A DNA stretch of 58,375 nucleotides, counting the filler, from Sphacelaria rigidula (Eukaryota): assembly GCA_964200075.2 (NCBI GenBank). It is 8 parts of 8 records of this genome, joined end to end, with 100 filler letters (N's around TTAATTAATTAA, not from the genome) between each part and the next. Parts side by side here need not be neighbours in the genome. Positions count along the whole stretch, not along the records: positions 1 to 7,210 come from CAXNAA020015951.1; positions 7,311 to 14,520 come from CAXNAA020015952.1; positions 14,621 to 21,830 come from CAXNAA020015953.1; positions 21,931 to 29,139 come from CAXNAA020015954.1; positions 29,240 to 36,448 come from CAXNAA020015955.1; positions 36,549 to 43,757 come from CAXNAA020015956.1; positions 43,858 to 51,066 come from CAXNAA020015957.1; positions 51,167 to 58,375 come from CAXNAA020015958.1. One strand, written 5' to 3'. The first letter of the stretch is position 1, and the number at the start of each line of letters is the position of its first letter. A program made the translations under genes and the position numbers. Positions 1 through 56,800 of this stretch are shown here, one piece after another. The notes below the pieces were generated by a model. That model did not search any database and was not told where the DNA came from. It worked only from the letters and a program-made list of their open reading frames with translations.

Positions 1-92
1 TCTCTTTCTCGTTTTCCTCTTTGTAATGGCGTTTTTTTTGTGTTTTTTTTTTCCTCTACAAACTACCCCCCCCCCCCCCCCCCCCCTCCCCC

Positions 93-196
93 ACGTAATG
101 AGTGCCGCAATGTTGGAGGTGTCTCTATCAGGAGTAGGAACGGTGTTCTGTCTCGAAAGGGATGCAAACGACTAAGGCAAGCAACAAATGAGTACG
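93..196 (+). mobile_element. C-tract-associated short element, copy 1
   Basis: Shares the core TCTCGAAAGGGATGC...ACGACTAAGGCAAGCAACAAATGAGTACG with the other copies. Flanked on both sides by CCCCCCCTCCCCC (80-92 and 199-211). Confidence 0.75.
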
Positions 197-337
197 CGCC
201 CCCCCTCCCCCGCGCCGCTCGTTTCATCCGTCTTATCTTCTCTTTGCCTCTCCGCCTCTATTTGCCACCTCTTTGGTGCTGTCTTCATTCCTCCCGCCAA
301 ACACCTTCCGTACCCTCGCTCCCTGTCCCTGTTACAG

Positions 338-502
338 GATGACGGCAGCGTGCAGGTAAGCGTCCAAGGCGCGATAGTGTTCGGCTTGGCCGTCGTGTTT
401 TTCGAGCTGTGCACCTCCAAATACATCATGTGGGCACACGCCAAGGTGTTCAGTCGGATGGGAGTCGAGGGGGGCTTGAAGGGTGTCGGCAGGGTGCTGG
501 AG
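338..502 (+). CDS. Internal exon of a multi-exon membrane protein gene (DDGSVQVSVQGAIVFGLAVVFFELCTSKY...GRVLE)
   Basis: Pyrimidine tract plus ACAG acceptor, GAG|GTGAGC donor, 165 nt, phase 0/0, open frame with a hydrophobic helix. Confidence 0.7.
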
Positions 503-2070: not shown

Positions 2071-2077
2071 AAGCAGT

Positions 2078-2354: not shown

Positions 2355-2492
2355 CACACTGGATAATGGCAATATAATAAATTGGTACAAAGTGTGCTGC
2401 GTACAATGTCGACTATTGCGTCTATTGCATTAGACAAGATATTCCACAGTGTACGTTTTTGACAGTGTAATCTACTGCCATTGTCCAGTGTG
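2355..2492. mobile_element. About 140-bp palindromic MITE, CACA..TGTG family
   Basis: Termini CACACTGGATAATGGCA and TGCCATTGTCCAGTGTG. Internal similarity to 3605, 37624 and 41741. Confidence 0.6.
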
Positions 2493-3604: not shown

Positions 3605-3747
3605 CACAACCTGGGCAACAGATTACATTTTCGAAAAATGTACTGCGTACAGTATGGGATCAGTTGGTTACTGCAATAGACGCAATAGTCGATACTGTAT
3701 GCATTATACTTTTGACAGCGTAGTCTATTGTCGTTATCCAGGATGTG
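3605..3747. mobile_element. About 140-bp palindromic MITE, CACA..TGTG family
   Basis: Core AATGTACTGCGTACAGTAT...CAATAGACGCAATAGTCGATACTGTATGCA is shared with 2355, 37624 and 41741. Confidence 0.6.
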
Positions 3748-4379: not shown

Positions 4380-4950
4380 CACACTAGTGTGATACTGACT
4401 GTGTATGGGGTGTGATATCTTGCGTCATTGGTGTGAAGTGCCGTCCACAGTACCCCGCATGCAGGGGTGTCATCGTAATAGGGTGTGATAATGTCGCCCA
4501 TGGGATGAAGGGCGCTACGAGGATATCCCCGAAGGGACTGTGATGGTAATGAGGTGTGATGGATAGACTTTCCCTCCCAGTGAGTTGAAACACCACTCCA
4601 TAAAAAAGGGACTCTATGAACCATGAAGCCGCAGATGGAGTCTGAAGCACTGTAGTATAGGGCGCGGAGCTCTCTGCAGGGGTGTGTTCTGTATCCCTTC
4701 CATGATATTGTCGGTCTCCGCAGCTGTACCATCGCTTGTGCACGTTGTAACGGTGTGATAATCCGGGGCGCCGTAGATGATACGTGACTCAACCCAGGGG
4801 GTGTGATATCACATGTCACCGTGTGATGAATTGGCGTTTTGTTCGGGATTCAAAAAAAATATAGCACACGGGTGTGGTCTGGTGTACTGTAGTGTAATTT
4901 TTCGAAGGGGGGTATGATATCTTACGAGAGTGTGATATCCTATGCAACCT
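4380..4950. repeat. Degenerate array of GGTGTGATA motifs (subterminal-repeat-like)
   Basis: About ten GTGTGATA/GTGTGATG occurrences at irregular spacing. Confidence 0.45.
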
Positions 4951-5506
4951 ACGGTACTCGGATGGAAATAAAACAACCGAGCAGCGACATCGGAGTAAAC
5001 CATCAAACAATCGCAAAAAAGAGGACATTTTTGTCAAGACATTACCGGTGGTCATGATGTCCTGTGGCTCGGGTGGCTCGGTCGGTCGTCTCGCAAAACC
5101 TTCTGATGGCTGAGCACTTGGGCGTTAGCCGACAATACTGCTCCGGAAAGAGGCGTGCCATCCAAAGAGCATGTGAGAAGCGTTTTCTGAGGTATTGAAA
5201 AGGCAACAAAAATGCCAGATTTGAAACAAGAGCGATTGGAAATACACACACAGTCCTTCCCCCCCATCCCCATCTCACGTCCGCTGATATCACGCTCGTC
5301 TTGTTGTTATGGTTGTGGTTGTGGTTGTGGTTGTATTTTATTGTTGTTGTTTCTGTTCCTGACCTTCTTTTCTTTTTTGTCCGTCCGCTTGTGTGTCTCC
5401 TCGCATGATGATGGTGATGGCGGTGGTTGTCGTGACAATGGCGGTGATTTTGCTCCGAATATATATATATATATATATACATGTGTGTGTATCATACATC
5501 GAGCAG

Positions 5507-6693: not shown

Positions 6694-7040
6694 GTGAAAA
6701 AACGCAAGCATCGATCAATAAATGAAGAAACATGGAGGAGTAGAAAAACACGGAAAAAATGAAAAACAAAAAAAAACATGGAAAAAATAAAAACAAAACA
6801 CGGGAAGTACATGAACACGAAACAAAAATGGAAAACAAAAAACATGGATATTATGCAAGTACGAAAAATTGCAGCGATGACATACGAGTCCACCTCGGTG
6901 ATTCCAAACTCATGGATCGCTTTAACCCTTTGGCGGCGAGAGGTCATGTGTTACTGGGCATCAATTTCATCCGAAAATCGTATGCATGATCCAAGCGGGG
7001 GGATAAGACATGTAGAAGGTTTTCTGTGTTGTATGAAAGA

Positions 7041-7156
7041 AACGTAGTGCGCGCCAAAATTTGGATGTGTCGCTATCATGAGTAGGAAGGGTGCTCCTTC
7101 TCGAAAGATATGCTTGGTCAATGGTCGAACGGCTAAGGCAAGCAACAACGAGCACG
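7041..7156 (+). mobile_element. C-tract-associated short element, copy 2 (long, diverged)
   Basis: Aligns with copy 1 along its whole length and is followed by about 31 C. Confidence 0.75.
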
Positions 7157-7187
<31 letters not shown>

Positions 7188-7210: not shown

Positions 7211-7310
7211 NNNNNNNNNNNNNNNNNNNNNNNNNNNNNNNNNNNNNNNNNNNNTTAATTAATTAANNNNNNNNNNNNNNNNNNNNNNNNNNNNNNNNNN
7301 NNNNNNNNNN
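7211..7310. other. Assembly linker (44 N + TTAATTAATTAA + 44 N); also at 14521, 21831, 29140, 36449, 43758 and 51067
   Basis: Identical 100-bp structure recurring every 7309-7310 bp. TTAATTAATTAA gives stops in all six frames. Confidence 0.97.
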
Positions 7311-7745: not shown

Positions 7746-7957
7746 TAGCTATCGACAACTACTGCTACACGCCATACATATTTGTATCTCGATAACCGAA
7801 ATGTTGGGGTCCTCGATGAAAAACCAATGTCGGGGATTTTCGGCGATCCGATCGGATCGCCTCAATTCTTCCTCAAAGTTGTTTCTTTATCGAGGACCCC
7901 AACATTTCGGTTATCGAAATCCAAATTTGTACGACGTGTAGCAGTTGTCGATAGCTA
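7746..7957. mobile_element. Foldback MITE with about 70-bp inverted repeats and a central palindrome
   Basis: TAGCTATCGACAACT...TCGATAACCGAAATGTTGGGGTCCTCGAT is mirrored at 7889-7957. Central GGCGATCCGATCGGATCGCC. Confidence 0.8.
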
Positions 7958-8084
7958 TCAGTAGGTGAAGGAAGAGAACCATATTTCGAACATTTGCTGT
8001 GGATACGAATGTTTCAATCCTCCGTGTTCTCATCCTCAATGGAAATCTCCATCCTCAACTTCGATGATCGGCTGTTTTCATGGT

Positions 8085-9215
8085 ATTCCTCCCATCCGGC
8101 CGTGGCTTTACTCGACATCCATCTCGCGGAGGTCTCTGCTCTCACTGTTATAGCCTCTTTTACTAGTCTTCCGCATCCCACCATTTACTGCTCTGTTGCA
8201 TACGATCAGTTCCTTTGCTATGACTTTACTCGCTGTGTTCTTGACCAACTGCTCCCATCCCTCTAGGATCTGCGGTCCTGCCCGATTGATTTCCAATCCA
8301 GTATCAACTGTACCTGCGCATTTCAACAGCTCGGAAAAACTCACTGCATTCTTGGCCATCTCACTCTTGCCGTATTTCTCCGATACCATCTAGTTTATCG
8401 GTTCTCCATTCGTACAACTTCCTACCCCGCCTATTTCTTTCAGCTCTCGTCTGTTGGCTTCAGGTTCATGTTCGGCAATGAGCTGTGGTTCCCACGTCCT
8501 CCGCGCGAACATGTACTTTCAATTCTTTACTATTTCCACGCTCTACCACTAATTAGTCAAGAACGGAGCATTCTCTCTGGTCTTTGCGGTTTCTAGTCCG
8601 TGTTCGTTGCGCCTTTTGGCGTTCATGCTCCACCGTGCAGCGTCTTCATCTCGTTTTGCGCAAGTAACGTGAGCATTTCTACCCCATTCGTGTTCTTCCT
8701 ATCTTCCCCGTATCGCCCAGTGATATCATCCGGTTTACCTGCTTTTCCTACCCTTGCATTAAAATCTCCCACTAACATTACTTCTCCTTGCACTTTGCAC
8801 GTTATCTACATCTGCTGCTATATCTCCAAACCTCCGCTGTGTATCGTTTACCCCACTCTTCGATTCTGGGGGCATGCAGATGTTCCCCACGAAGAAGTCC
8901 TTCGTTCCCCGCTCTACTGGTACCCTTATTCATATGCTCTCGTCGAATTTCGTGTCGTCGATCACTTCTATGCTGTCGCACAGGTATTTCCTGACTAACA
9001 ATCCTGCTCCTCCCGCTCACCTGCTGTTGAGCTTCTGTCCCTTCCGCTTTTCTCCCCTCCATGCGTAATCTCCAACTTTGCATCCTACTTTTGCCTCCTC
9101 TTTCTCTCGTGACTCTTGGATTCCTACTATATTTAGGTCGCGTTCACTTACTTGTTGGACCATCTCTATTCTTTTGCGCTTCTCTGCGACGAATCCACAC
9201 ATGTTTCACCATACT
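8085..9215 (-). mobile_element. Degenerate LINE ORF2 fragment (APE endonuclease plus linker)
   Basis: Motifs NMCGF, IVGIQES, GGAGLLV, VMLVGDFNARVGK (about 8745-8785) and NTNGVEML in order, broken by frameshifts and stops. Confidence 0.8.
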
Positions 9216-9583
9216 ATTCTCAAGTTCCTTCCGAATCATTACCTGATTTCGTGTTGTGTAATGTTCTGTCTCCGTCGCTTTTACTTCCCCTTACTTTTCC
9301 TTGCTCAATGGTTCTCCCCGTTTCCGCGTTGGCCTTTGTCTACTTGCTGCGGGCCGCTGCGTCTCCTCCCCTTTCCCTCGTGGGCACTTACACGTTTCTG
9401 CCTCTATTCCCCTCCGTTTAGCGTCGGGAACCAAAGTACATCCCCACCAAGGCGTTGCTCTGCTCTCACATATATGTCCGCAGCTCGTTTTTATTATGAG
9501 ATGAAAGTCTCCAAGCAATTCAAACCTCAGAAATATTATGTGCACCCCTACTGTTGTGTGTGTGTGTGTGTGTTTGTTTTGCC

Positions 9584-12953: not shown

Positions 12954-12980
12954 GTACTCATGATCTTGCATGCCGTGTTA
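12954..12980 (-). mobile_element. C-tract-associated element, subfamily 2 remnant
   Basis: Reverse complement CACGGCATGCAAGATCATGAGTAC matches 36699-36720 and lies 6 nt from the G tracts at 12935-12947. Confidence 0.6.
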
Positions 12981-14237
12981 AGGCCATGGGCCTCGCATCC
13001 CTGCGAAGTCGTGACGGATCACGCTGGGTTTTCGCCGGACCAGTGATCGGGGTGGGTGTAATGGCATGCGCTGTGTCAAATGGTTTTCGCGTGCTTGCCT
13101 CGCCAGCCCTTCCTCGGGCTGGTGTGCCTGTTTCTCTTTCTGCTTTTTTTGGGGGGGTCTTGATTGGCCCTCACTGAAATTCTCTGGCGCTGAGGTTCCG
13201 GTAGAGTCCGGGTATTACTGGTGTTTTCTGCTGTAATGAAATCAAGCAAGTCGCGTACAAAAGTGCACCCTGACTAGCAACCGCAGTTCGATATAACCGT
13301 ACACGAGTGTATTGGCAAACTTAGCTTTTGGTTGGTTGGTTTATTTCGTTTTTTGTGTGTTTCATTTTGTTCCTTTTTTTCCCTTGTGTGTTCTTCTTGT
13401 TCTTGTTTTCTTCATATTTTTTGTTTCCTTCTTTTGATGTTACTGATGGACGAATCCGGGATCGGTGGGGATGAAGCCGGCTCAGGGGGTACAAAAAGCG
13501 TCAAGGATAAGGAGCAAGACGCGTTCGAGGCGTACCGAAGAAATAAAAGTTACTCCTTCCGAAGATTTCAGACAACAAGAGGGGAACAGAAAAAAAAAGG
13601 CGGATGCAATCGATCACCATGGGGATCACTCTTGTATGCTCCGTCGGTTGATTGTTGCTTGACAAGATGTGGTTATTATTCTGCTTCTCTGCCTCTTCAG
13701 TTGCGTGTCCGTGTGTATGTGCGCACATGTGCGTGTGATCCATGTATGTATGTATCCATATCATACATGTGTGCATGTGCACTGAGGTCGTACGGTGAAT
13801 CAATCACACCTTCTACGAGTTTTGTACAACGGACGGTATGGCATTCTTTTTTGTATTTTGTGTGCGTGTGCTTTTTTGTTTCTGTGATTTTTTCAATCAT
13901 CGCCTTGATAATGATAACATTGGACATTGACCCAAGTGTTGGTGTCGTGGGGTTTTGTTTCGTTTTTTTCGCTCAGGTGATAACCCCACAGCCGCCAAGG
14001 TGGACAGATGGGCAGGACTTGGTAGATAGGTATGTTTACATCAGTTCGAATTAATATCATTTCGGCGAGAAGGATCACTATTCATAGTCAGGTAGGTGTC
14101 CATCAGCTACGGGTGCTCCAAGGAAGGATTGACTTGAAAGTATTTCCAAAACAAAAAACGTCTCAGGGCCGTTTTTTTTTTCATCCAACGAACAACTGCT
14201 TCAGGCTTTCTGCCCTCCCACCCCTCGTCCCTCCTTC

Positions 14238-14299
14238 CTGTCTCGAAAGGGATGCGCGGTCAACGGCCGAACGACAAAGGCAAGCAACAAATGAGTACG
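14238..14299 (+). mobile_element. C-tract-associated short element, copy 3
   Basis: Core motif between C-rich 14213-14237 and the C tract at 14300-14310. Confidence 0.75.
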
Positions 14300-15149
14300 C
14301 CCCCCCTCCCGGGACGTGAACAAAGGTGGCATGAAATCGTTTGGACACTTTCTACGATAGCCCCCCCCCAAAAGTGCATGGTTTTGGGGGGCAAAATCTT
14401 CACAAAAATCGAAATGGGAAAACCCGAGCACAACGAGAAGCAGGAAATTCCCCCGCTCGGGTTCGTTCTAGCTAATGTCGCCAATATAAGTCGCTTCATG
14501 CAGCCTGAACCCGAACATCANNNNNNNNNNNNNNNNNNNNNNNNNNNNNNNNNNNNNNNNNNNNTTAATTAATTAANNNNNNNNNNNNNNNNNNNNNNNN
14601 NNNNNNNNNNNNNNNNNNNNATCAGGGTGCAACCTCTGCACACTACTGTTCGCTGAACAGTAGTTGGCCTGTCGTGCACAGTGCCTACTACCACGAATTA
14701 TTCCAACAACATACACAAAATCTGGATATGGCGTCTTGGGTTTTGAGAGTTATGCTATGAAAAATCTTATGGATGGAGAACCGGTAGTTCGTAATAAAGG
14801 ATCAAAATAAGCTCTTATTTTGCTACTTTACCCTTTTTTTCTTTTTTTCTTCTCCTAGGCCGTTTTTCAGGAGACGTGCAAATTGATCTTCGACCTCATC
14901 TTCGGTTTTCACTTCGTTATTAAAAATTTCGATTTGAAATGTAGCATAGAGAACCACAGAGGTATGCTGAATGAAATATAACAGAAATTGGCCTTCGAAT
15001 TTGTGTTTCAGAGGTTCGGGCGCTGTAGTTGCAAGGTGGTCTTCACCAACTCAAACACTCTGAAATAGTGAGAATAAGAAATAATACCAAACGCACCCAT
15101 GTTCTTGAGTTTATCAAACCCTAGCGAGGTCCCACACCATATTTCCATA

Positions 15150-15259: not shown

Positions 15260-15976
15260 TACATAAGCACACAACGTGGGGTGGTAGATGCCCTGAAAAA
15301 TACGGTTTCGAATTGCCACAGACCCGGTACCTAAACGGCCCATGCTCACCCCCACTTTTACGGTTGGCCCCTGGAGGAGCTTCGTATGCACAGTGAATAG
15401 GACATGCATGAAAAAAGCAAAGCCAGACCCAAAGATTTGGTTTACATTTTCATGAGTTACAGGCCATAGTAATTTCTCGGGTCTCATAAAAAAACCCTCA
15501 ATTCATGAATATATATATATATATATGTGTGTATCTTTGGGTCTAGCGTTCATTCGTTTTGTTTTTATGTCCTATTTATTGTGCATGCGAAGTTCCTGCG
15601 GCCAACTCAAAATATTTAGGTGAGGATTGGCCTCTAACCTACAAACCCGCTTTTAGGCTCGCCCAGCTCGTGAGACCATTGGCATCGCATCCCTACAAAG
15701 CCGGGAAGGAGCACGCCGGGTTTTCGCCGGGGGCGGGGGGATGAGGCGCGGGGGGGAGGGGGGGTGACACATGGCGGTATTGGGGTACACATCGACGTGC
15801 GAATAGTCCGTTTTAGAATCGTGTGATATGATGTGACTGCAGGACGTAGCCATGATCTTTGGCAAACGTGACGTTGAATGATGGACATTTTCATGCTCAA
15901 TTAGCGGAGAATTCGCTGCCCCTTGAGGTTGACGTTCTAGGGAGAGCATGTATTTGAATTCGAAAAAAGATAGTGA

Positions 15977-24324: not shown

Positions 24325-24357
<33 letters not shown>

Positions 24358-36660: not shown

Positions 36661-36721
36661 GGTGTTTTGTAGGGATGCGAGATCGATGATCATATAACCA
36701 CGGCATGCAAGATCATGAGTG
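36661..36721 (+). mobile_element. C-tract-associated element, subfamily 2
   Basis: AGGGATGCGAGATCGATGATCATATAACCACGGCATGCAAGATCATGAGT aligns colinearly with the subfamily 1 core. C tracts on both sides. Confidence 0.65.
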
Positions 36722-36741
36722 CCCTACCCCCACTCCCACCC

Positions 36742-36808
36742 ATGCTCCGTCTCGAAAGGGATGCGTGGTCAATGGTCAAATGACTAAGGCAAGCAACAAA
36801 TGAGTACG
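36742..36808 (+). mobile_element. C-tract-associated short element, copy 4, with a 14-bp TSD
   Basis: CCCCACTCCCACCC at 36728-36741 and 36809-36822. Confidence 0.85.
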
Positions 36809-41740: not shown

Positions 41741-41883
41741 CACACGCTAGACTGCCGATTACACTGTCAAAAAGTGTACTGCGTACAGTGTATAGTCTAT
41801 TACAATAGACGCAAAAGTCGATACTGTACGCGGCACACTTATTTATCATGTATTATTCAGTTTCGTTTTTCTTGGGTACGTGT
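41741..41883. mobile_element. About 140-bp palindromic MITE, CACA..TGTG family (intronic)
   Basis: Same core as 3605 and 37624. Confidence 0.55.
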
Positions 41884-42985: not shown

Positions 42986-43857
42986 GTATGTTGACAATTG
43001 ACCACGTGTACACCGTAGCCACCCTTTGAAACCTTTGAAGCAACAGATCATGCCTCGACCTCTCGGCCATTTTTTTTTTTTTCAGGTTCTGCGCCTCAAA
43101 GCCGATGTTGATGCGCTTTTTTAGGGGAATAAAATGCCTACTCTATTGACCACTGGACACTACGCCTCTTCGATCTTCTTGCACAAAGACTTTACGGAGG
43201 TGGTCGTAGGCCAATTTCCGAGCAAAGCTGACGCCGTGTTGGATTCCCCGTTGATTTTTTATACCCAATACTGACCTGACGTTCGTCAGTTTGTGCGGGC
43301 GAGATCGCCAGTCGTCCACGTCAGCGCAGAGTAACATGAAGAACGAAAAAGGTCGATTGTTGGTGATGAGATTGTAGAACATCATATCGCGGGAGCCCAC
43401 ACCACTGACCCATGACATGTAACCCGTGTCGCACGATATTTTGCGTATGACGACTGCGTTCCTGCGGCAAATCCTGCGAGTCATCATAAGATACGTCGGG
43501 ATTCTCCACAAATTGTTTGCTCGGTAGGTTTGTCGGATAAATATAAACGGCAGTCAACATTTGATTAACCCTTTGGGAACCCTCCCCTCCCATCCCCGGG
43601 CCAGATGCCTCATTATGAGAAGCCCTGACAAATAAGAAAAGATGGATTTAGAGTCGCGAACTATTATACTTGAAATTAGAGAAGTGCACTGTTTCGGTCG
43701 GCTGCATCATCAAGAGCTGGCGAGCGTAAAAACCCACACTACTGTATATGGCCGGCGNNNNNNNNNNNNNNNNNNNNNNNNNNNNNNNNNNNNNNNNNNN
43801 NTTAATTAATTAANNNNNNNNNNNNNNNNNNNNNNNNNNNNNNNNNNNNNNNNNNNN

Positions 43858-46800
43858 TTCGGCCTTGGTTTTCTCGCCCCGTTGAGCGACTCGGATGAAA
43901 TCCCGCACCACCGCTTTATTGATCGAGAAGCGGTCGAGCGATACCGTCATCACCGCCGCGAAAAAGATGTTGAACAGATCAGGGGAGAGTACACAACCTT
44001 GACGGAGGCCCCGGTTGACGTTAAACCACTCCGATGTCTCGCCGCTGTCAAGGCGTACGCATGCCCGCATGTCGTCATGGAATTGGCGGATGATGGAAAT
44101 TACCTTGGCGGGTATCCCGTAGCGTGCTGCAACTTTCCAGAGAAGAGAATGGTCCACTGAATCGTACGCTTTTTTGAGGTTGATGAAGCACATATACAGA
44201 GGAGCATTCTTCTCTCGGGCCAGCTCTTGGAGTCTGCGTACAACGAACATCATGTCGACTATGGAACGGCCAGGTCGGAAACCGCATTGCGCTTCTGGGA
44301 GGATTCCCTTCCATTCGCAGTAGGCACTGAGGCGAAGCGTAACTATCTTGAGCACCACTTTGCCCGCGTGGGACCCGAGAGAAATACCGCGGTAGTTGCC
44401 GCATTCGAACGGGTCCTCTTTCTTGAAGAGCACCTTGATGATAGTATCTTTCCGTTCTTGCGGTACAAGTTCCTAACGCCACACGGTGAGCACGATGTCG
44501 TGGAGGTACTTCAGGATGGCAGAGTCCTCGGTGCGGCCGAGCTTTAATAGTTCGCCACAGATGTCGTCCGTCCCAACGGCCTTACCGTTCGCCAGTCTGC
44601 CCACCGCTTGCTTCACTTCTGCCATCGAGGGCTCCGCCGCGAGCGGTGTGTGCTCTGGCTGCTGTTCGATGAGGTCGATGACGGAGTGATCGATTGTAGG
44701 TGAGGTTGCGTTCAGCAGTATGTCAAACCAGTTCTTCCATCGTTGCAGGATAGCTTGCTTGTCCCACAACAGCTCCCCAGTCGCGCTCCGGATGTAGGTT
44801 GAGTCGCTCTGCTCCTTCCCTTCCAGTTCCAAGGACTTGATATGCTGGTACAGTCCTGCTTGATCCTTCTTGCGAACAAAGTCCGCGGTCCGGACTGTGA
44901 ACTCGAGGACGAAATTCTGCAGCTCAGCATTCTTCACCCGCTTAAACGCCTTGTCCATCACCTTCAGCGCCTTCTCCAGGGCAGTGTCTTCGGGGTTTGC
45001 TCGTTGTTTTTTCCATACACTTTCCCGGATGTCCCAGCCGTTTGGGGGCGGTCCTGAGCTTGAGATGGTTAACTGAAACCTCTCGATGGGGTTTTCTTGG
45101 GTCATGGAGGGAGTGTATCCGCGGCGGTCTGTCGCAGGGCGTTGGCGAAGGTAGACGCCATGTGGTTGACGTCCGTCAATGCGGGGTAATTAGTGGCATT
45201 CGGGAGCTCAACGAGAATGGCCTGTGCAACAGTAGCCCTCCAGTTTCGGTCGGATGCGAGGGCTTGGCGGTCGAAACGCACTCCCCTATCCCCGCCTCTC
45301 GATCGGGGTTGGCGGTTGGGGGCGTTCCGTCCAAGGAGACGGATTGCGGCAGAGACCAGACGATGGTCCGATTTCATCCCGGGGTGCACTGTGACATTTC
45401 GGACGAGTCTGCGATCCTGCTGACGTACGAGAATGTAGTCCAGGCGCCAGTGGTGTTCGACCTTTGGCCCCGGATATGTGTACGCGGTCGAGCTTTCCCC
45501 GCGAATTGGTGTGCGAAAAAAGGTGGTTGTGATGGCCATTTTATTTTCCGCGGCGAATTTTAGAAGGCGTCTACCATTATCGTTCCGGGTGTCTCTGCCA
45601 TACTCTCACGACACCCGAGCGTCGTCCATGCCTCCTACTTCTCTCTTTCCGGTACGAGCATTGACATCCATCATTAGTACTAGGTGCTCGTTGGTGGGCA
45701 CTTCAGCGATGGAACTACCTAGAGTTTCCCAGAACATGGTCTTATCAGAACCTTGTGCTGTCTCAGTAGGAGCATACCCTACAATGAAGGTTGTGGCAAC
45801 TCTATGCCGGAAAGCTACTCGTACCTTCAGGACCCTGGCACTCACGTGTTCGGGAGTGAAGGCATCTGGACCAAGTGTGTTGGTGATAGACTCCTTATTG
45901 GCAAGGCCGACTCCGAGCATTCCCGGTTTCCCCCTGTCTCCATGGCAGTGGCCGCTGCAGTAAACCATGTAGCCCACGGTCGGTGCGTGGGAGGTTGTTC
46001 GTCCATCGCGACGGGTTTCTTGGAGGGCGAAGAAATCCCAGTTGTACTGGGAAGCAAAAAGCAGTAGGTCCTCTGCATGGCCTGAGCCGTTGGAACCTCT
46101 CTCGGCCATGGTGCGTACATTCCACGTGGCCACCACCAGCTCTTTGGATCGAGTCTCCGCCCTTGCGGCAGTACGATACGCGTGAGCCTGACCTTATCGG
46201 CTCGCCGAGCTGGTCTGTCCCTCCTTCTCTTCCTTCGTCTTTCTCTGCCCCTTTCTTTTTTGGTGTCTGATCCAGCGTTCGTGTGCTACAATTATCCGTT
46301 TCCACGCACCCTTCTGCCCACGCTGGTTCATGCCTATCTGTTCCTGCGCAAGGTTCAGCGGACCTCGCGCACGTCGACCTCCACCAAGTCGACCTTTATG
46401 CTTACACGCACGCCGCTGTCTGCTCTCAGAGCTACGGCAACAATGCTTTCGGTGGTGGCGATGAGTAGTCGGATTAGCGGCCCCTTCCGGCAGGGGTAGG
46501 GCGTGTTCCGATATCATCGCCATGTAGCAGCACGTTTACGGTTGGTAAACACCGTACGGTGCAGGGAGGGGCGCTGGCGCAAGGGTATTCAAACCCACCC
46601 CACTGTGGTGCGTAGCAGTTAGATACTGTAGGAGAAGTTAATCTCCGCACAAGTCGAGTGTGCTACTCTTCCAGGGATCTTTGCCTCAGCTGGCCTTGAC
46701 CCGGTGACGGCGGTTCGGGTCTACGACCGGGAAAGGTACCGACTGTATTGCGGGTGATGAACACCGTATGGCTCGCACGAGCAGGGGTACGTGGGATGAG

Positions 46801-48430: not shown

Positions 48431-48659
48431 TGTTTCTCCGTAGAATGTGCCGTAATAGCAACTTCACTTTTCTGCAAAGCGTTTCAACTCACTTCCACCT
48501 GTGGCTGACGGGATATTTTCTGTCGTCTTGATATTTGTGCTACCGTCAGCAGTTAGGTTTCAAGGAAGCACAACACGAAGGAGCCAGGTCGATCTAGCTC
48601 GAAAGTGCGCATCAAGGACGACTACTCCAATCCGCCATCTCACCGTTTACAAGGGCTAC

Positions 48660-50495
48660 ATGGCTGAGTTCTGCACCGAGCACCCCAGGGCGGGAGTAAT
48701 GAATGTGGTGCACAAACCGTGCGGCGACGAGGGCTGCTCGAAGAAGCCGTCGTACGGTGAAGTGGGAAGCAAGAAGGCTGAGTTCTGCTCCAAGCATGCA
48801 AGGGCGGGAATGGTGAATGTGGTGAACAAGAAGTGCGGCCACGACGACTGTTCCACGAATCCGTCGTATGGTGCAGCGGGAAGCAAGAAGGTGGAGTCCT
48901 GCTCCAAGCATGCCGGGGCGGGCATGGTAAATGTAGTGCACAAGAAGTGCGACTACGACGGCTGCTTAAAGCAGCCGTCGTATGGTGCAGCGGCAAGCAA
49001 GAAGGCGGAATTCTGCTCCAGGCATGCCGGGGCGGAAATGGTAAATGTGGTGAACAAGAAATGCAGCTACGAGAGCTGCTCCACGAAGCCGTCGTATGGC
49101 ACAGCTGGAAGCAAGAAAGCGGAGTTCTGCTCCAAGCATGCCAGGCCGGAAATGGTGGATGTGGTGAGCAAGAAGTGCGGCTACGAGGGCTGCTCCACGC
49201 AGCCGTCGTATGGCGCTGCGGGGAGCAAGAAGGCCGAGTTTTGCTCTCGGCATGCCAGGGCGGGAATGGTGAATGTGGTGGTCAAGAAGTGCGGCTACGA
49301 GGGCTGCTCAACTAAGCCGTCGTATGGCGCAGCGGGAAGCAAGAAGGCGGAGTTCTGCTCCAAGCATGCGAGGTCGGGAATGGTTCATGTGGTGGTCAAG
49401 AAGTGCGGCTACGAGGGCTGTTCCACGAAGCCGTCGTATGGCACAGCGGGAAGCAAGAAGGCGGAGTTCTGCTCCAAGCATGCGAGGTCGGCAATGGTTC
49501 ATGTGGTGGTCAAGAAGTGCGGCTACGAGGGCTGTTCCACGAAGCCGTCGACCGGTGTAGCGGGAAGCAAGAAGGCGGAGTTCTGCTTCAGGCATTCCAG
49601 GGCGGGAATGGTGGATGTGGTAAACAAGAAGTGCGGCGACGAGGGCTGCTCCGCGTATCCGTCGGATGGTGTTGTAAGCAAGGAGGTGGAACTCCGCTTC
49701 AAGCGTGCCAGGGTGGGAATGGTTAATCTGGTCAGCAAGAAGTGCGGCTACGAGGGCTGCTCAACGAAGCTAGTGTTTGGTGCAGTGGGAAGCATGACGG
49801 CGGAGTTCTGCTCCACGAATCCTAGGACGGGAAGAGTGAACAAGGAGAGCAAGAGTTGCGGTGAAGAGGGGTGGTTCAAACTGGCTGTCCGTAAGAAGCA
49901 CACCGTTGATGAGGCAAAGGTCGGCCGACAAGATACCTCTGCACACAGGACAGCTGCGGTGTCCGACATCGTGAAGCTGCACACTGGGGAGGGCACCCCC
50001 GTCCGTAGCCCATCGAATAGTGGTGGAGGAACCGTTGTTGATGTGAGAGGAACAAAACGCAAGCGCGCAGGATTCTCGGGTTCTGGGACAAACAACGGTG
50101 TTGGTGCTCGCCGGAGTGCGTTCGCCGGTCCCAGGTCGGGTACAAGAACAGGACACCCAGCTTCAAGGCCTGGTGGGATATCGTCTGAGGCGAGGGCAGA
50201 AGGAGTGATGAAGGTAGAGCTGGCGGTCCCTTCTACTACACACAGTGGCGACAGGATTATGGAGGGTCGCGGGCGGGCTGGCCGTTCGAATGGTCGGACC
50301 ATTGAAGGTCATTGTAGCGCCATTGAGGTTGGCGGTGGTGGTGTAAGTTCGGGGCGGCTCTGTGGTTCGCCGGCTACGGTACGTAAACGCCTGGGCACGT
50401 TTCATGTGTACTTTGAAGAGGTAGAGGAGGATTCGGACGTGAAGTTGGAGCTAGGAGTGCCTAATCCTTCTCCTCGAGCGTACGATACATTGTAG
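48660..50495 (+). CDS. EsV-1-7 cysteine-rich repeat protein (frame open from 48501; first in-frame ATG at 48660)
   Basis: About ten 38-aa repeats KKCGYEGCSTKPSYGAAGSKKAEFCSKHARAGMVNVV (C-x4-C-x16-C-x2-H), then a low-complexity tail with KRKR. Confidence 0.88.
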   Translation: MAEFCTEHPRAGVMNVVHKPCGDEGCSKKPSYGEVGSKKAEFCSKHARAGMVNVVNKKCGHDDCSTNPSYGAAGSKKVESCSKHAGAGMVNVVHKKCDYDGCLKQPSYGAAASKKAEFCSRHAGAEMVNVVNKKCSYESCSTKPSYGTAGSKKAEFCSKHARPEMVDVVSKKCGYEGCSTQPSYGAAGSKKAEFCSRHARAGMVNVVVKKCGYEGCSTKPSYGAAGSKKAEFCSKHARSGMVHVVVKKCGYEGCSTKPSYGTAGSKKAEFCSKHARSAMVHVVVKKCGYEGCSTKPSTGVAGSKKAEFCFRHSRAGMVDVVNKKCGDEGCSAYPSDGVVSKEVELRFKRARVGMVNLVSKKCGYEGCSTKLVFGAVGSMTAEFCSTNPRTGRVNKESKSCGEEGWFKLAVRKKHTVDEAKVGRQDTSAHRTAAVSDIVKLHTGEGTPVRSPSNSGGGTVVDVRGTKRKRAGFSGSGTNNGVGARRSAFAGPRSGTRTGHPASRPGGISSEARAEGVMKVELAVPSTTHSGDRIMEGRGRAGRSNGRTIEGHCSAIEVGGGGVSSGRLCGSPATVRKRLGTFHVYFEEVEEDSDVKLELGVPNPSPRAYDTL

Positions 50496-51032: not shown

Positions 51033-51166
51033 GAGGTGACGTACGTGCATTGACCTACACTCCCAGNNNNNNNNNNNNNNNNNNNNNNNNNNNNNNNNNN
51101 NNNNNNNNNNTTAATTAATTAANNNNNNNNNNNNNNNNNNNNNNNNNNNNNNNNNNNNNNNNNNNN

Positions 51167-52500
51167 GGGGCTATCTCGGCAGCAGCCGACGCTCGTCGTC
51201 GCCGTCAGAATTGTGATCGCTAACAGCATCACGAGCTTGCAGCTCGCTCTGCGTGCCCGCTTCACGCGGGTCACACGCCCCTGTTGTTTCGATCATGCAA
51301 GGCATGTCCACAGCTACGCGCTGCTCCGGCGACAATTCCGCCAACCCGGCATCCACCTGTCCTCCAAGCAGATACGCCTGCGAACCATCTGAACGATATC
51401 CCACCATGTCACTGGCGCAGATAGATTCACCATGAGCACGGCAAGCTCCTTGCTCACCCTGCTCGTTCGCAATACGGGGATGAAACCCCCTGCAGCTTCG
51501 AGCATGCAAGGAGTATCTCCAGCTATGCGCTGGTCTGGCGGCAACAAGCAACTGGGACCTACGCCCACCAGTACTTGCTCATTGGCCCATGTAGGCCTCG
51601 CCCTCTCAACATCGCCAACAGCAGCAGCATTATCACCCATACTTGCGACAGCTATCACCTCCTGCTCAGCGCAATCCTGAACGGCAATAGCGGTAGCTGA
51701 GCTGCCTGCAGTCCGCTCGAGCTGCGTGGCATGTTCGCCCTCTCCAACAGTAATACCAGCAGTACCCCATCCAATGCTTACCGTGGTACTGTCGGCGGGC
51801 GCTCTCTCATGCATACCCGCATTGACAGACACTTTCTGAGCCTCCTTCCCGCTCTGCACAGTGGAAACAGCAGCCCTGTATCGTTGCTTAAGACGCGCCC
51901 TACCGACTGCACGTTCGGCGGGTGGGTGCACTATCGTGCCTACCCCCTCGGGCAGAGACGTACTTCTCGGCTTTCACAGTGCAAGCAGCTGCCCTGTACC
52001 ATTGTTTCAGACGCGCAGCACCTACTGCACGTTCGGCGAGTGCACTGCCGTGCCTGTCCCCTCCGGCAGACACATGCCTCTCGGCTGTCACAGTGCAACC
52101 AGCTGCCCTGCATCGTTGTTTCAATCGTGAACCACGTACTGCATGTTCGGCGGGTGCATTGTCGTGCCTGTCCCCTCGGGCAGGCACATGCCGTGTGACA
52201 GATGCGCGTTTCGCACTGCGATGCACCCCACCGGACGAGGCATTATTGCGCAACGCAAAAAGTAGCTGCTCGTTCTCAACATCATTAGCATGTTTCGAGA
52301 ACGTGTCACGCAGACATTTCGCAATATGTTTCGGCATTAGGTCAGCAACTGCTGCCACCTCAAAGAGATTTGTTCACCGCGCGTTCACCTGATCGACACC
52401 TCGCACATATTACTCGTATTTGCGTAAGAGCTCGGTCGATTTCTCGCTCGAAAAACTGCGGCCCTAGTACGGCATCTCCAGCGCCAGTACAGGAACAACA
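51167..52500 (-). pseudogene. Divergent gag-related relic with about 114-bp internal tandem repeats
   Basis: VADLMPKHIAKCLRDTF..ENEQLLFALRNNA aligns with copy A gag MQELVPKHIQNCVSDPIF..DEDELQQGIARHA. Three repeats at about 51855-52190. Confidence 0.55.
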
Positions 52501-53552
52501 CGACCACCGACGATGACATATTCCTGCACCTTGTACATTCCGGTCAGCAGTACAGCACTCCACACCCCTTTTTTTGCAAAACGAAGTCGCCTCCAACTCA
52601 CAGAAACAAAAACTCTCTCCTTACACCAAGACGCACTGCACCACCTTACAGTAGTGGGCGGTCTAACTATTTATTCTGTGGCGCTTTGTGATTTTTTCGT
52701 AATTGGCCATTTTCTTGGGCATTTTTCGCTGGCCACCGCTTATCACATCGGAGATCTCGAGATATGTGTATGCGCTCCACATACCAAGAAGAAAAATCGT
52801 CTGTACTCAATATTGAGTGACTTACGGGCTGAACGGTCATCGGGGGTCCTGCCATGTTTCAACCCAGATTCTTCCTCATCTGTATTTTTGGTCGATCGAG
52901 CCCGTCCTGATCATTTTTCTCAAGAAATGTACAGTTTCATTTTTTTTTAATTCCTGTCTACTCATTGCACTAGGGCCGGAAAACTGATTCACGGTCAATA
53001 ACACCCTCCTGATGAACGGGGTATTTACTCGTCTAGCCCGATAACACCGACATACACTAACTTGGGCACTGTGTTTCGAGGATGATCTGTTGTGTTGTAT
53101 CAAAATCCACCGACGCTAGCAATCTCGATTTCTATCGAAAAGTAGTACGCGAGAAAACCCCCAGAACACCCCTTAATAGTTAGACCGCCCAGTACTGTAC
53201 ACCACCTTAGAACGACGACCACACACACCCCTTCCTCACGCACGTCTCACCACGTGTTCGAAGTCCTTAGACTCCTCTCTCTGACCGTACCTGGCCAAGC
53301 GTGGAACACGCAACCCTCGCTGGCTCCACCAGGCAGTAATTGCGCCGCTTGTTTTGGAACGCTCACGGGCTCGCCANNNNNNNNNNCTCAGAACCTCCTC
53401 GGCTCTACTTCTCCAACTCCTCGCGACGTTAACATGCCTTGAGCTGGTCTTGCTTGCTGCAAACTGATCAGGCCTGCAGAATTCCCTATCCTGAAGTGTC
53501 AGCTGCTTTTCAGCGGACCTGCCGCCATCCAGCGGACATAATGAACATTTAT

Positions 53553-53820
53553 TACAGGCCTCTGTCACTCAAGATCAGATCGCCATGTGAACTCCTCCTA
53601 TTACGGGCACATGGAGCTTTAGTTATTCATGTATGAACCCTCAGCATAGTACAGGAGAACAGGACTATAGCCTCTCTCCACCAGAGTGGCAAAATCAAAC
53701 GTACAAAAAATGTCCCGAAGCTTATGTAACAATGATGACAAGAGTCTACATATCACGCCCGCAACTCCACCTACACAATGTTTCCCCAACCTGAGGTAAC
53801 AGTGGTAGCTAGAGTCTACA
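53553..53820 (-). repeat. Candidate LTR of a third related element that truncates copy B
   Basis: Starts TGTAGAC exactly where copy B integrase homology stops, is 268 bp long, and is followed by the degenerate palindrome ATAAATGTTCATT. Confidence 0.5.
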
Positions 53821-56800
53821 GCCAATGAACAAATAATCAAAATGCATCATCTCACCGGGCCGTGTGCCATGCACTGTCTTCCCCAGTGGCCGCGGGACCG
53901 TCTTACCCGCTTTGGAGTCCACACAATGCAAGCATTTCCTCACAAAATCTGTCATATGAGCTTCCATCTGAAACCAACAGCAATACTCTCGCAGCCGCTG
54001 CAGTGTTGCCACAACACCCCGTGCCTGTTCCCTTCATATAAGCACACACCATCAACCGTGTGTGCAGCTATTTTGCTTGCGGCGGGATCTAGAACACACT
54101 CCGCCCTGCTACGTGCACGCGAAATAAACTCTCAGCGTCTTCCGAAATTCGCCCAACAGCTGCTGCGAAAGTAGGGGCTCCAGCAACCATCACTCCGAAC
54201 CCGGCTTGAGCCTGCTCTTGGACCTCACGAATAGCGTCCTTCGACGGCAGCGTTTCATCGGGCTGACCGCTCGCAAACACGGCCGCAGCACGCACAGACA
54301 CCGCCGGAACGTTTACCCACCTTGACAGTAAACCTCCCCAGCAATCACGCTCACCAGCAATGCGCCTGATGGAGTAATCGTACTGCACGAGCACAGCCTT
54401 CCATTGCTCGAGCCTCTGGGCAGTAGTCTGAGACACGGACGCACGCCTCGGGGTTAAAAATGTATGCTACGTTACGATGATCGGTGAAGATATGTACCCC
54501 ACCCCATAGAAGATACTCCAACCTACGGTAAGTACTTACGATTGCATAGCCTTCCTTATCCACCGTAGTCCACCGAACCTGCGCTCCACGAAAAGTTCCG
54601 CTGAGAAACCCCATCGGCTTATGGCTGATGTCTTCCACCGCCAATATACCACCCAGCTCATCCTCCGGCACCTGCGTAAAAAGGCTTCCCCAGTGTAGAT
54701 CCGATGCGTCTGGAAACATGAGCATCTCATACCCTTGCTTGGGATATGACAAAGCGACATCATGCGCGACGAAATCTTGCGCCTCGTGCCACGCCTGAGC
54801 ACGCCTGGACGTACATGCCGACTCCCCGATTGTCCGGTTTGACGCCACTCGCTTGGTACGGCGCGCGTTCCCTGTATGTGTCCCTCCAGAAATACACGCA
54901 GCGGCTCCACCACCTCCGTCAAATGCGGCGGGGATGTTCTCAGCCAGTTTACCGCCTGCAGGAACTACATAAGCTCGCCTGCTGTGCGCGGGCGCCGAAG
55001 ATTGGCCAGCCCGCTCAGTCTCTCGCGGTCATGAGCCACTTGACCACCTGAAAAGACCTTCCCGCACCACGTGATCTGTGTCGTAGAACATACACTTGTG
55101 CGCAGCCGCAAAAAGACCAGCATCCTCCAAACGGCCTAAAATCTCGTCTAGTGTACACAATAGATCATCCTCATCTTCACCCCACCGCAAGATATCATCC
55201 ACCCATACTTTGCACTGAAGTCCGGTCAATAATCCGGTCATGATGCCTTGAAAATACCCCGTCGCATTTAACATCCCTTGCGACACCCGTGTGGGGGTAA
55301 ACAGACCTTCGGGAGTCGCGATCTTGAATATTTCTTGTGCATCAGCCGCCAACGGCATCTGCTGGTAACCCTGCAGCATATCAATCTTGCCAAACACGCA
55401 GCGCCTAGCGGGTCGATCACCTCCGCCCCGTGGTTAGGCATAACATTCGGAACCTTCCCAATCTGCTTGTTTACCGCGTGATAATCACTCATCAGTCGAT
55501 AACCGCCCTTCTTAAGCGTCGCCATGGCCGCGCTCGCCCACACTGCCTGTAAGCTGCGAAATATGAGCCCAAGCGCCACCAGCGTCGCCATATACCCTGC
55601 TAACCACGCAGCCTTTACAGGGAAATGAATACACCCGCGGGCTCGCCTTGACTGCTCTAGGCCCAAGTGTGAGTCTCACCCTCAATGGCTCTACACGAGC
55701 GGGCGGATCACCGCGCAGTGCTCGTCGAAAAGCGTTGACACCTCGCCCAACAACCTCTCGAAGCTCATCAACGCTGCTCGCCGACATCCCTCGTCCGCAG
55801 CCGCTTGTACTGCATGATCCAATGCAACACGACGCTCTGCCAGCTCCTCCTCTGGAGTCATGTTCATCTCGGGACCACGCGACATCAATCGCTCAACGGA
55901 GAGATCCACACGCTCCTCTTGTCCACCTGGATCCTGTCACGCCTCAATCGCAATGCTCACACGCCTACATTCTCGGAATTCAGGCGTATCTACACCTCTC
56001 ACTAACGCATGTCTTGAGGGTGCGAATGCGTCCAGCCCACTGTACACGTCAATGCCCATGGCCTCCAGCCTACCGCTCCCGATGATCACCACATTATCGG
56101 CACCTGGCATGACCGCATAATGACACGGATCCAACACCACCGGCCCCCAGCTGGTGTGCAGAGCGGTGCGAACTAGGCACGTCTTTGACTGCATATTCCG
56201 TATATTACCATCAGCTAGTTTCACCGAGTGTGCACGAGCCATGCTCGTGACGACTGGCACATCAGGGAACACTGCTTGCAACTGGGTCGCCACTTTTTCA
56301 GACATGATAGTGATGCCAGCCCCCAAATCCAAAACGGCAGTAACAGGCAAATGTTCTTGGCTGCAGAACCAGGAACGGACAAGTCTGCCCGTCAGCATCG
56401 CTGCTTGCGGTCAACTTCCACACCCTCAGCCTGTAAATCTGCAACCTCAGCGTTGTGCAGACCCCGCCATATCGTCATTGTCTGAGACGTCCACTCCTCA
56501 GCCGGTCCCGCCGACAGTTGGGGTTGAACTGCAGGAGCTGGAGCGGAAGGCTGGGGCGGCACCATGCTATCCGCGCTGCTAGCACCCCCTTGCGCTCCGT
56601 CTCGAAAGGGATGCGTGGTCAATTGTTAAACGACTAAGGCAAGCAACAAATGAGTACGCCCCCCCCCCTCCCACTGACCATGGACCTGTTGCGGCTGCTG
56701 TTGCTGCTGCGGCGGCGGCGACGACTAGGCTTGCCCACCTGACGCACTCACCGCGGCCGCAGGTGTGTGCTCTGATTGTTACAGTCCTTCTTACAGTGGC

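What the first reader, a model, noticed from the sequence alone, without database searches (positions are those of the whole stretch)
66..56672. Candidate poly-C-tract-targeting retroposition system: 7 copies in 4 independent contigs
Seen: one non-coding motif (consensus GGTGCTCCGTCTCGAAAGGGATGCGTGGTCAATGGTCAAACGACTAAGGCAAGCAACAAATGAGTACG) occurs at 93-196, 7041-7156, 14238-14299, 36742-36808 and 56594-56658. A diverged subfamily occurs at 36661-36721 and 12954-12980 (minus). Every copy has the same right end at or within a few nt of a C tract, a variable left end (27-116 bp retained), no poly-A tail and no TIRs. Two copies show 13-14 bp duplications of the C-rich target. Established: a fixed 3' end, 5' truncation and variable TSDs typify target-primed reverse transcription, and some LINEs and Penelope-like elements target simple repeats. 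Inference: these are very short footprints of an abundant retroelement or RNA-templated repair process that recognises C/G tracts (potential G-quadruplex sites). The autonomous partner is not in this window.
Basis: partly seen in the sequence, partly recalled or inferred. Interest (0 to 1): 0.85.

Follow-up and report, generated by a model that had tools for sequence, protein, structure and literature searches.

The report
Truncated LINE tails ending in C-tracts
The repeated motif is the last stretch of a jumping gene (a LINE retrotransposon of a probable brown alga) that ends in a run of Cs and tends to land in C-runs, a kind of element already catalogued in the brown alga Ectocarpus, so it is real but ordinary.

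Summary
The repeat is real: 5 main-family and 3 diverged copies in 5 of the window's 8 pieces. It is not a non-coding motif. In two metagenome contigs found with a 23-nt piece of it, the motif is the end of an intact single ORF (1426 and 1253 aa). The 1426-aa ORF carries an APE-type endonuclease and a reverse transcriptase. The stop codon lies inside the motif, followed by 5 nt and a C-run. The window copies are therefore 5'-truncated 3' ends of a LINE, and a 1.35-kb piece of the LINE body lies at 8047-9421(-). Two copies have 13- and 14-bp C-rich target duplications. Contigs of four public runs show the whole LINE, C-runs beyond the 3' end, a discrete 66-nt class and tandem arrays. A 2025 Ectocarpus transposon catalogue lists RTE-X LINEs with '(C)n 3'' ends and 'C-rich' TSDs. 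The nearest named proteins are from Ectocarpus, at 47-66% identity. Verdict: a new member of a known kind.

The parts
66..92 (+). C21-T-C5 tract upstream of copy 1. Its last 13 nt (80-92) are the left copy of the target-site duplication.
93..196 (+). Copy c1: the LINE 3' end (LINE positions 4881-4997 of L002 read in sense), with a 13-nt internal deletion. It encodes aa 1391-1414 of the ORF at 71% identity.
197..211 (+). CG followed by CCCCCCCTCCCCC: the tail and the right copy of the 13-bp duplication.
6999..7156 (+). Copy c2, the longest (158 nt, LINE positions 4837-4997). The upstream flank is not C-rich.
7157..7187 (+). C31 tail of copy c2.
8047..9421 (-). Degraded body fragment of the same LINE family (endonuclease region, aa 167-623). 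It is 76% identical to L002 in nucleotides over 1349 nt and has frameshifts.
12954..13050 (-). Diverged-subfamily copy d2. nhmmer covers 12954-13016. A shared left extension with the copy at 15668-15725 was read by eye. It is followed by a C6AC6 tract.
14240..14299 (+). Copy c3 (60 nt, LINE positions 4938-4997), followed by C7TC3.
14310..14369 (+). A 34-nt internal LINE piece (positions 4729-4762, 91% identical), then 17 unrelated nt and C9, directly behind the tail of c3.
15668..15725 (-). Eighth, diverged copy (nhmmer E 5e-5 over 15668-15705). It is preceded by C-rich tracts and has no C tract after it.
36661..36722 (+). Diverged-subfamily copy d1. Its C-rich tail (36723-36742) was the target of copy c4.
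36743..36808 (+). Copy c4 (66 nt, LINE positions 4932-4997), flanked by the 14-bp duplication CCCCACTCCCACCC (36728-36741 and 36809-36822).
56594..56658 (+). Copy c5 (65 nt, LINE positions 4933-4997), inserted in an LTR retrotransposon. The tail C10TC3 lies at 56659-56672.

Best explanation
The motif is the 3' terminus of a single-ORF, APE-endonuclease plus reverse-transcriptase LINE of a probable brown alga. That terminus is the last ~20 codons of the ORF, the stop codon TGA, a 5-nt 3' UTR (GTACG) and a (C)n tail. The window copies are 5'-truncated products of target-primed reverse transcription. In features the family matches the RTE-X LINEs curated in Ectocarpus, which have a single EN-RT ORF, a (C)n 3' end and C-rich TSDs.

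Inferred mechanism: the RNA ends in a C run. The endonuclease nicks the G-rich strand of a C/G tract, and the freed G run anneals to the RNA's C tail and primes cDNA synthesis. Insertions are therefore biased to C tracts, including the tails of earlier copies. This would yield C-rich duplications, tail growth by slippage and head-to-tail arrays. Reverse transcription often ends early, with a hot spot 66 nt from the 3' end.

Shown: ORF anatomy, fixed 3' end, C tails, two TSDs, abundance, the 66-nt class and the arrays.
Inferred: nick specificity, annealing of tail to target, slippage, and the clade name.
For: - A metagenome scan with a 23-nt piece of the motif gave 3 loci. In L002 a 1426-aa ORF, and in L001 a 1253-aa ORF, run through the motif and stop at its TGA.
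- The L002 ORF has Exo_endo_phos (E 6.7e-13, aa 235-461) and RVT_1 (E 1.1e-30, aa 807-1056).
- All 5 main-family window copies align to the 3' end of L002 at 82-96% nucleotide identity, and in frame to aa 1391-1426.
- 3 of 3 loci carry C tracts right after GAGTACG.
- Contigs laid on L002 from 4 runs at 80% likeness numbered 165,746, 81,380, 7,281 and 130,775, and all 30 bins were covered.
- Loose ends beyond the tail (place 104) are G runs on the antisense strand in 1794, 816, 117 and 1571 contigs.
- Loose ends at place 179, which is 66 nt from the 3' end, are G runs in 404, 324, 62 and 365 contigs.
- Joints from 178-182 back to 104-108 show tandem units of 72-79 nt.
- TSDs of 13 and 14 bp with T or A interruptions flank c1 and c4.
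- The paralogous LTR-retrotransposon site of c5 carries a C7 tract.
- PMC12477816, Supplementary file 1 (read) says: RTEX-1_Ec32 'single EN-RT ORF; (C)n 3'', TSD 'C-rich'; RTEX-2_Ec32 '(C)n termini/TSD'; RTEX-N1 'can be present in tandem', with a 60-bp 3' end shared with RTEX-1 and RTEX-2.
- One Ectocarpus protein (P0004, 66% identical) ends in ...NGAPSRKGRVANGQMTTASNK, like the peptide the motif encodes.
Against: - Membership of the RTE-X clade was not tested by phylogeny or by alignment to the published consensus sequences, because the FASTA supplements are not readable here. The nearest named Ectocarpus proteins are only 47-66% identical.
- Only 2 of 8 window copies have a clear TSD.
- Copy c2 has no C-rich upstream flank, so targeting of C tracts is not obligatory.
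- The one available 'empty' site is a paralogue that carries 47 unrelated nt in place of the element, so it is not a clean empty site.
- No full-length copy with both ends was seen.
- The depth gradient is a per-contig figure, which the tool says cannot rank parts of a gene.
- RNA structure of the 3' module is not significant (z -0.14 to -1.02; no compensatory pairs).
Confidence: 0.85

Rival explanations
1. The short copies are not random truncations. They are a discrete 66-nt non-autonomous mini-retroposon (the RT-recognition module plus a C tail) with its own defined RNA 5' end. The LINE copies it in trans, and it propagates within C tracts as tandem arrays.
For: - 3 of 5 main-family window copies start at LINE positions 4932-4938.
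- Loose ends at exactly this place, followed by G runs, occur in 404, 324, 62 and 365 contigs of 4 runs, and joints give 72-79-nt tandem units.
- In Ectocarpus the non-autonomous RTEX-N1 shares just a 60-bp 3' end with the LINEs.
- The unit's ends GUGCUC and GAGUAC can pair (L001 fold).
Against: - Longer copies (117 and 158 nt) and a 1.35-kb fragment also exist, so truncation at other places does occur.
- A truncation hot spot, or repeated insertion into tails, would give the same picture.
- The fold is not significant.
- No RNA evidence was obtained.
Confidence: 0.2
2. The C tract is only the element's own homopolymer tail, as poly-A is for L1. On this reading there is no preference for C tracts as targets.
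For: Copy c2 has C31 downstream but a flank with 25% C upstream. 3 of 3 metagenome copies end in C8-C10 or a C-rich tract. The Ectocarpus table lists '(C)n 3''.
Against: The 13- and 14-bp duplications contain T or A interruptions in the same order on both sides, so C-rich target DNA was duplicated. The paralogous site of c5 has C7. Upstream flanks of the 66-nt class are long C runs. The curators also list TSDs as 'C-rich'.
Confidence: 0.12
3. The C tract is purely a pre-existing genomic target, and the element has no tail of its own.
For: In c4 the TSD abuts the last element base with no extra Cs between. C-rich flanks lie on both sides of c1, c3 and c4.
Against: Copy c2 has C31 on one side only. 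At the c5 site the tract is 4 nt longer than in the paralogue. Every one of the 3 independent metagenome copies carries the tract.
Confidence: 0.1
4. The RNA is the opposite strand. On this reading the motif is the fixed 5' (cap) end of a small RNA, the Cs are non-templated additions by a reverse transcriptase at the cap, or the copies are filler from RNA-templated break repair.
For: A fixed end next to a homopolymer, with the other end variable, would fit in the abstract (sequence only).
Against: The sense strand is fixed by two intact EN-RT ORFs that end inside the motif. No Rfam family matches on either strand (0 matches). Tracts of 21-31 C are far longer than cap-end additions (the usual length of such additions is from recall).
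Confidence: 0.02

Closest known systems
RTE-X LINEs of Ectocarpus (RTEX-1_Ec32, RTEX-2_Ec32; PMC12477816, Supplementary file 1 read, passages of the main text)
   Same: Single EN-RT ORF. (C)n 3' terminus. C-rich TSDs. Very high copy number with frequent 5' truncation. An Ectocarpus protein shares the C-terminal peptide encoded by the motif.
   Different: The nearest named Ectocarpus proteins are only 47-66% identical, so this is a different family in another alga. Identity to the published consensus sequences and the clade position could not be tested.
Non-autonomous RTEX-N1/N2_Ec32. RTEX-N1 is probably the 'Sower' repeat of the 2010 Ectocarpus genome paper. That equation is my inference from the equal size: 2.48 Mb against ~2.5 Mb.
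   Same: They share only the 60-100-bp 3' end with the LINE. They have C-rich TSDs and can stand in tandem. The diverged copies d1, d2 and 15668-15725(-) have 33 and 36 nt between GGGATGCG and TGA, against 35 in the main family (read). They are therefore probably not coding and may be of this sort.
   Different: RTEX-N1 and N2 have heads of 607 and 188 bp. The window's short copies are bare LINE 3' ends of 60-66 nt without a foreign head.
L1 and Alu with a poly-A tail and a T-rich nick site (textbook knowledge, recalled)
   Same: The logic is the same: a homopolymer RNA tail anneals to the complementary run freed by the APE-type nick, which gives a target bias, TSDs, 5' truncation and tail-length variation.
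   Different: The homopolymer is C, not A, so it cannot come from polyadenylation. The 3' UTR is only 5 nt.
Simple-repeat-targeting LINEs (recalled from reviews, not read here). RTE (CAA)n and CRE (CA)n of Ectocarpus are listed.
   Same: The 3' tail is made of the same simple repeat as the target.
   Different: Here the repeat is a mononucleotide C run. I found no other paper describing that (search: 35 papers held at least 3 of the 4 terms, 12 were listed, and none concerned a C-tailed LINE by title or abstract).

Membership tests
APE-type non-LTR retrotransposon (LINE) | ORF with an apurinic-like endonuclease N-terminal to a reverse transcriptase | tested here: met
   L002 ORF: Exo_endo_phos at aa 235-461 and RVT_1 at aa 807-1056. 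The window fragment 8047-9421(-) covers aa 167-623.
APE-type non-LTR retrotransposon (LINE) | Copies share the 3' end and are truncated at the 5' end | tested here: met
   5 of 5 main-family window copies end at LINE position 4997 and start at 4837-4938. Loose ends in 4 runs agree.
APE-type non-LTR retrotransposon (LINE) | Target-site duplications of variable length | tested here: inconclusive
   2 of 8 copies have clear TSDs of 13 and 14 bp, and 6 of 8 have none.
RTE-X clade as curated in Ectocarpus | Single EN-RT ORF, no ORF1 | tested here: inconclusive
   There is one long ORF in L002 and one in L001. Both contigs lack the element's 5' end, so an upstream ORF cannot be excluded.
RTE-X clade as curated in Ectocarpus | (C)n 3' terminus | tested here: met
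   3 of 3 loci and 7 of 8 window copies. G-run loose ends beyond the tail in 4 runs.
RTE-X clade as curated in Ectocarpus | C-rich TSD | tested here: met
   c1 CCCCCCCTCCCCC and c4 CCCCACTCCCACCC.
RTE-X clade as curated in Ectocarpus | RT groups with RTE-X reference elements in a phylogeny, or the element aligns to the RTEX_Ec32 consensus | not testable with these tools
   No reference LINE sequences are held, and the paper's FASTA libraries cannot be read. There is only indirect support: Ectocarpus proteins at 47-66% identity, one of which has the same C-terminal peptide.
SINE | Head derived from tRNA, 5S or 7SL with a Pol III promoter | tested here: not met
   0 Rfam matches in the window at gathering thresholds. 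The copies are collinear with the LINE ORF end.
   The endonuclease is Exo_endo_phos (APE type). No other endonuclease family was reported at E up to 0.01.

The most novel reading that the evidence does not exclude
The 66-nt unit is a self-sufficient minimal retroposon: the last 20 codons, the stop codon, 5 nt and a C tail. On this reading it has a discrete RNA 5' end at the base of a terminal stem (GUGCUC/GAGUAC), is copied in trans by the LINE, and seeds its own next target with its C tail, so it builds tandem arrays at C/G tracts. That would make it among the smallest LINE-dependent mobile units known, and a generator of long C/G homopolymers (potential i-motif or G-quadruplex sites) in brown-algal genomes.
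Probability: 0.2. Interest if true: 0.55.

Novelty: new member of a known kind. Interest (0 to 1): 0.25.

Why it matters
The finding turns an apparently new 'poly-C-targeting system' into an annotatable LINE family. The short C-flanked motifs scattered through this genome should be masked as LINE 3' ends. About 2% of the contigs of each of four runs carry pieces at least 80% like this LINE. The C-tailed, C-tract-seeking habit of these brown-algal LINEs has so far been recorded, as far as my searches show, only in a supplementary table. It may explain many long C/G homopolymers and short tandem arrays in these genomes. The discrete 66-nt class could help define the minimal RNA module that this reverse transcriptase recognises.

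Tried and rejected
- No whole genome is held for the window, so no genome-wide BLAST was possible.
- The search of earlier findings by sequence, by place and by words returned nothing.
- Rfam at gathering thresholds gave 0 matches.
- A viral-contig scan with the 23-nt motif gave 0 matches.
- The 2010 Ectocarpus genome paper is not held. 'Sower' is known to me only from one sentence in PMC3145265, so its identity with RTEX-N1 is an inference from size.
- Pfam on 23 further window ORFs found no LINE RT. The RT at 20300-21830 is followed by RT_RNaseH, so it belongs to an LTR element.
- A consensus RNA fold of 6 copies gave -4.33 kcal/mol with 0 compensatory pairs. Single folds had z -0.14 to -1.02. 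No support for a structured RNA.
- No RNA holder is listed among the runs. X4 and X7-X9 are only guessed to be RNA. X4 contigs look like those of the DNA runs, so nothing can be said about expression.
- The depth gradient towards the 3' end (X1: 8.4M and 6.4M in the two 3'-most bins against 0.007-1.9M beyond position 685) is per-contig depth, so I do not use it as proof of truncation.
- No 5' junction or full-length TSD was found in L001-L003.
- The literature search for poly-C-tailed LINEs listed 12 of the 35 papers that held at least 3 of its 4 terms, and none was relevant by title or abstract.
- The opposite-strand and cap-addition ideas, and the idea of a Penelope-like element, were considered and dropped because of the ORF orientation and the APE domain.
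Full report
**The window.** The 58,375 bases are eight pieces of about 7.2 kb joined by N44-TTAATTAATTAA-N44 spacers. No whole genome is held. One ORF carries nine EsV-1-7 cysteine-rich motifs. That domain is described as having proliferated in brown algae (passage of PMC12477816). The runs that hold the DNA are labelled one coded organism and 'algae metagenome'. I therefore take the source to be a brown alga or a close relative. The species was not determined.

**The observation.** The repeat is real.
- A 28-nt core of the motif, with up to 3 mismatches, is found 3 times against 0.00 expected.
- The repeat finder groups 4 copies of 83 nt and 5 copies of 45 nt.
- An nhmmer profile built from the copies finds seven at E 1e-13 to 1e-21 and an eighth, diverged one at 15668-15705(-) with E 5e-5.
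- All share the right end ...ATGAGTACG or a variant, and all but the eighth, diverged copy are followed within 0-5 nt by a C-rich tract. The tracts reach C21 and C31.
There are 13 bp around copy 1 (2 of 500 shuffles reach it) and 14 bp around copy 4 (0 of 500). Both have T or A interruptions in the same order on each side.
- The other six copies have no clear duplication.

**What it is.** A scan of metagenome contigs with a 23-nt piece of the motif returned three loci.
- In L002 a 1426-aa ORF, and in L001 a 1253-aa ORF, run on the motif's sense strand straight through the motif. They stop at the TGA inside it...AAC AAA TGA, then GTACG, then C8-C10.
- L003 shows the same end, with a C-rich tract.
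- The L002 ORF has an APE-type endonuclease (Exo_endo_phos, aa 235-461, E 6.7e-13) and a reverse transcriptase (RVT_1, aa 807-1056, E 1.1e-30).
- The 'non-coding motif' is therefore the last ~20 codons of a LINE's EN-RT ORF, its stop codon, a 5-nt 3' UTR and a (C)n tail.

**How the window copies map to the LINE.**
- By blastn to L002 read in sense, the copies cover LINE positions 4881-, 4837-, 4938-, 4932- and 4933- up to the common end at 4997. Identity is 82-96%.
- tblastn aligns them in frame to aa 1391-1426.
- Copy 2 thus starts at 6999, not 7041.
- A degraded 1.35-kb piece of the same family lies at 8047-9421(-). It covers the endonuclease region and is 76% identical in nucleotides. So the autonomous partner is partly in the window.

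**The diverged copies.** Copies d1, d2 and the one at 15668-15725(-) keep the core GGGATGCG...ATGAGT and the C-rich tail. The spacing between the core and the TGA is 36 and 33 nt, against 35 in the main family (read). They are therefore probably not under coding constraint. They may come from a second lineage or from a non-autonomous derivative.

**Genome-wide view.** Contigs of four runs were laid on the whole of L002 at 80% likeness.
- The numbers laid were 165,746 of 7,725,350 contigs (X1), 81,380 of 4,333,584 (X3), 7,281 of 359,577 (X4) and 130,775 of 5,464,531 (X6). That is about 2% in each run.
- All 30 bins were covered, so the full LINE exists in the organism.
- Beyond the tail (place 104), loose ends have a consensus of G runs on the antisense strand in 1794, 816, 117 and 1571 contigs. 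The C tail is therefore general and often longer than 10.
- At place 179, exactly 66 nt from the 3' end, 404, 324, 62 and 365 contigs go on with long G runs. This is a discrete class of 66-nt copies preceded by C tracts, and it matches window copies 3, 4 and 5.
- Joints from 178-182 back to 104-108 (8 rows listed; 6 to 29 contigs each in X1) show head-to-tail arrays of the 66-nt unit plus its C tract.
- The loose end at place 212 has a consistent non-homopolymer consensus. I read it as a subfamily difference, like L001 against L002.
- Depth rises towards the 3' end, but the tool warns that contig depth cannot rank parts of a gene, so I give it no weight.

**Tail or target?** Both, as far as the evidence goes.
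- For a tail of the element's own: 3 of 3 metagenome copies carry it. Copy 2 has C31 downstream with an upstream flank of only 25% C. At copy 5 the tract is 4 nt longer than in the paralogous retrotransposon copy.
- For a C-rich target: there are two interrupted duplications. The paralogous site of copy 5 has C7. However, it also has 47 unrelated nt where the element sits, so it is either a target deletion or a second event, not a clean empty site. Copy 4 sits in the tail of the older copy d1. The 66-nt class has C runs upstream.
- The simplest mechanism is inferred, by analogy with L1's poly-A tail and T-rich nick site (textbook knowledge). A C-tailed RNA anneals to the G run released by the nick. 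This biases insertion to C/G tracts and to earlier tails, and so explains the arrays.

**Comparison with what is known.** The 2025 Ectocarpus transposon paper (PMC12477816) was read as follows: passages of the main text and part 1 of Supplementary file 1.
- RTEX-1_Ec32 is listed as 'single EN-RT ORF; (C)n 3'' with TSD 'C-rich'.
- RTEX-2_Ec32 is listed as '(C)n termini/TSD'.
- The non-autonomous RTEX-N1 and N2 share only a 60-100-bp 3' end with them, have C-rich TSDs and 'can be present in tandem'.
- RTE-X families make up 16,418 copies and 3.41% of that genome.
- In the same table, RTE ends in (CAA)n, CRE in (CA)n and Chlamys in (A)n.
- RTEX elements are also reported in Saccharina (passages of PMC4421812).
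- The L002 ORF (aa 760-1426) finds unnamed proteins at 80% and 73% identity. It finds named Ectocarpus sp. proteins at 59%, 66% (68% coverage) and 47%.
- One of these Ectocarpus proteins ends in the same peptide as the motif encodes. More distant relatives (40-43% identity) keep ...GCVVNG... a few residues before the stop.

By its features this is an RTE-X-like LINE family of another brown alga. The clade name itself rests on the literature match, not on a tree, because no reference sequences could be read.

**Rivals.**
- The opposite-strand and cap-addition idea and the RNA-templated repair idea fall with the ORF orientation and the lack of any Rfam match.
- Penelope-like and RLE elements fall with the APE domain.
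- The SINE reading fails, because the copies are collinear with the ORF end.
- The open question is whether the 66-nt class is a truncation hot spot or a discrete mini-retroposon. Its ends can pair (GUGCUC/GAGUAC), but the folds are not significant, and no RNA data could be had.

**Verdict.** The repeat is a real and abundant family, correctly sensed as a retroposition footprint. It is ordinary in kind: 5'-truncated 3' ends of a C-tailed LINE, already catalogued in Ectocarpus. It is a new member of a known kind, with interest about 0.25.

Noticed in passing
window 7211-7310, 14521-14620, 21831-21930, 29140-29239, 36449-36548, 43758-43857, 51067-51166: N44-TTAATTAATTAA-N44 spacers. The window is eight separate ~7.2-kb pieces, so distances between pieces mean nothing.
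   Followed up: yes
window 22939-28901 (+) and 53821-57939 (-): Two ~90% identical copies of a Gypsy-type LTR retrotransposon. The first has RT_RNaseH and integrase ORFs at 25972-27753 and 248-nt direct repeats at 22939-23186 and 28654-28901 (93% identical). Copy c5 is inserted in the second.
   Followed up: partly
window 24330-24400 (-) against 56590-56672 (+): At the place where c5 sits, the paralogous retrotransposon copy has 47 unrelated nt followed by C7. This is either a target deletion on insertion or a second, different event at the same C tract.
   Followed up: partly
window 14310-14369: Directly behind the tail of c3 lies a 34-nt internal LINE piece (LINE positions 4729-4762, 91% identical), then 17 unrelated nt and C9. 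It may be a template-switch or deletion product.
   Followed up: no
window 43960-44643 (-): An RT fragment of a different LINE family, 35% identical to aa 733-956 of the L002 ORF. It is cut by the start of the piece.
   Followed up: no
window 20300-21830 (+) and 58122-58304: A second LTR-type RT plus RNase H, cut by the end of the piece. A 79% identical 183-nt stretch lies near the window's end.
   Followed up: no
window 48459-50492 (+); also 51845-52156 and 39117-40087: A long ORF made of 114-nt tandem units encoding nine EsV-1-7 cysteine-rich motifs (E 1.9e-135). Other 114-nt periodic repeats lie elsewhere in the window.
   Followed up: no
window ~7790-7930: A palindromic, MITE-like element with ~27-nt inverted ends (GATAACCGAAATGTTGGGGTCCTCGAT and its complement), next to the LINE body fragment (read by eye).
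   Followed up: no
window 2359-2465, 3605-3711, 37629-37734, 41741-41840: Another interspersed repeat family of about 100 nt, with four copies in two pieces (D11 and D17). It is unclassified.
   Followed up: no
window 32580-34586 (-): A 667-aa ankyrin-repeat ORF (Ank_2, E 2e-57).
   Followed up: no
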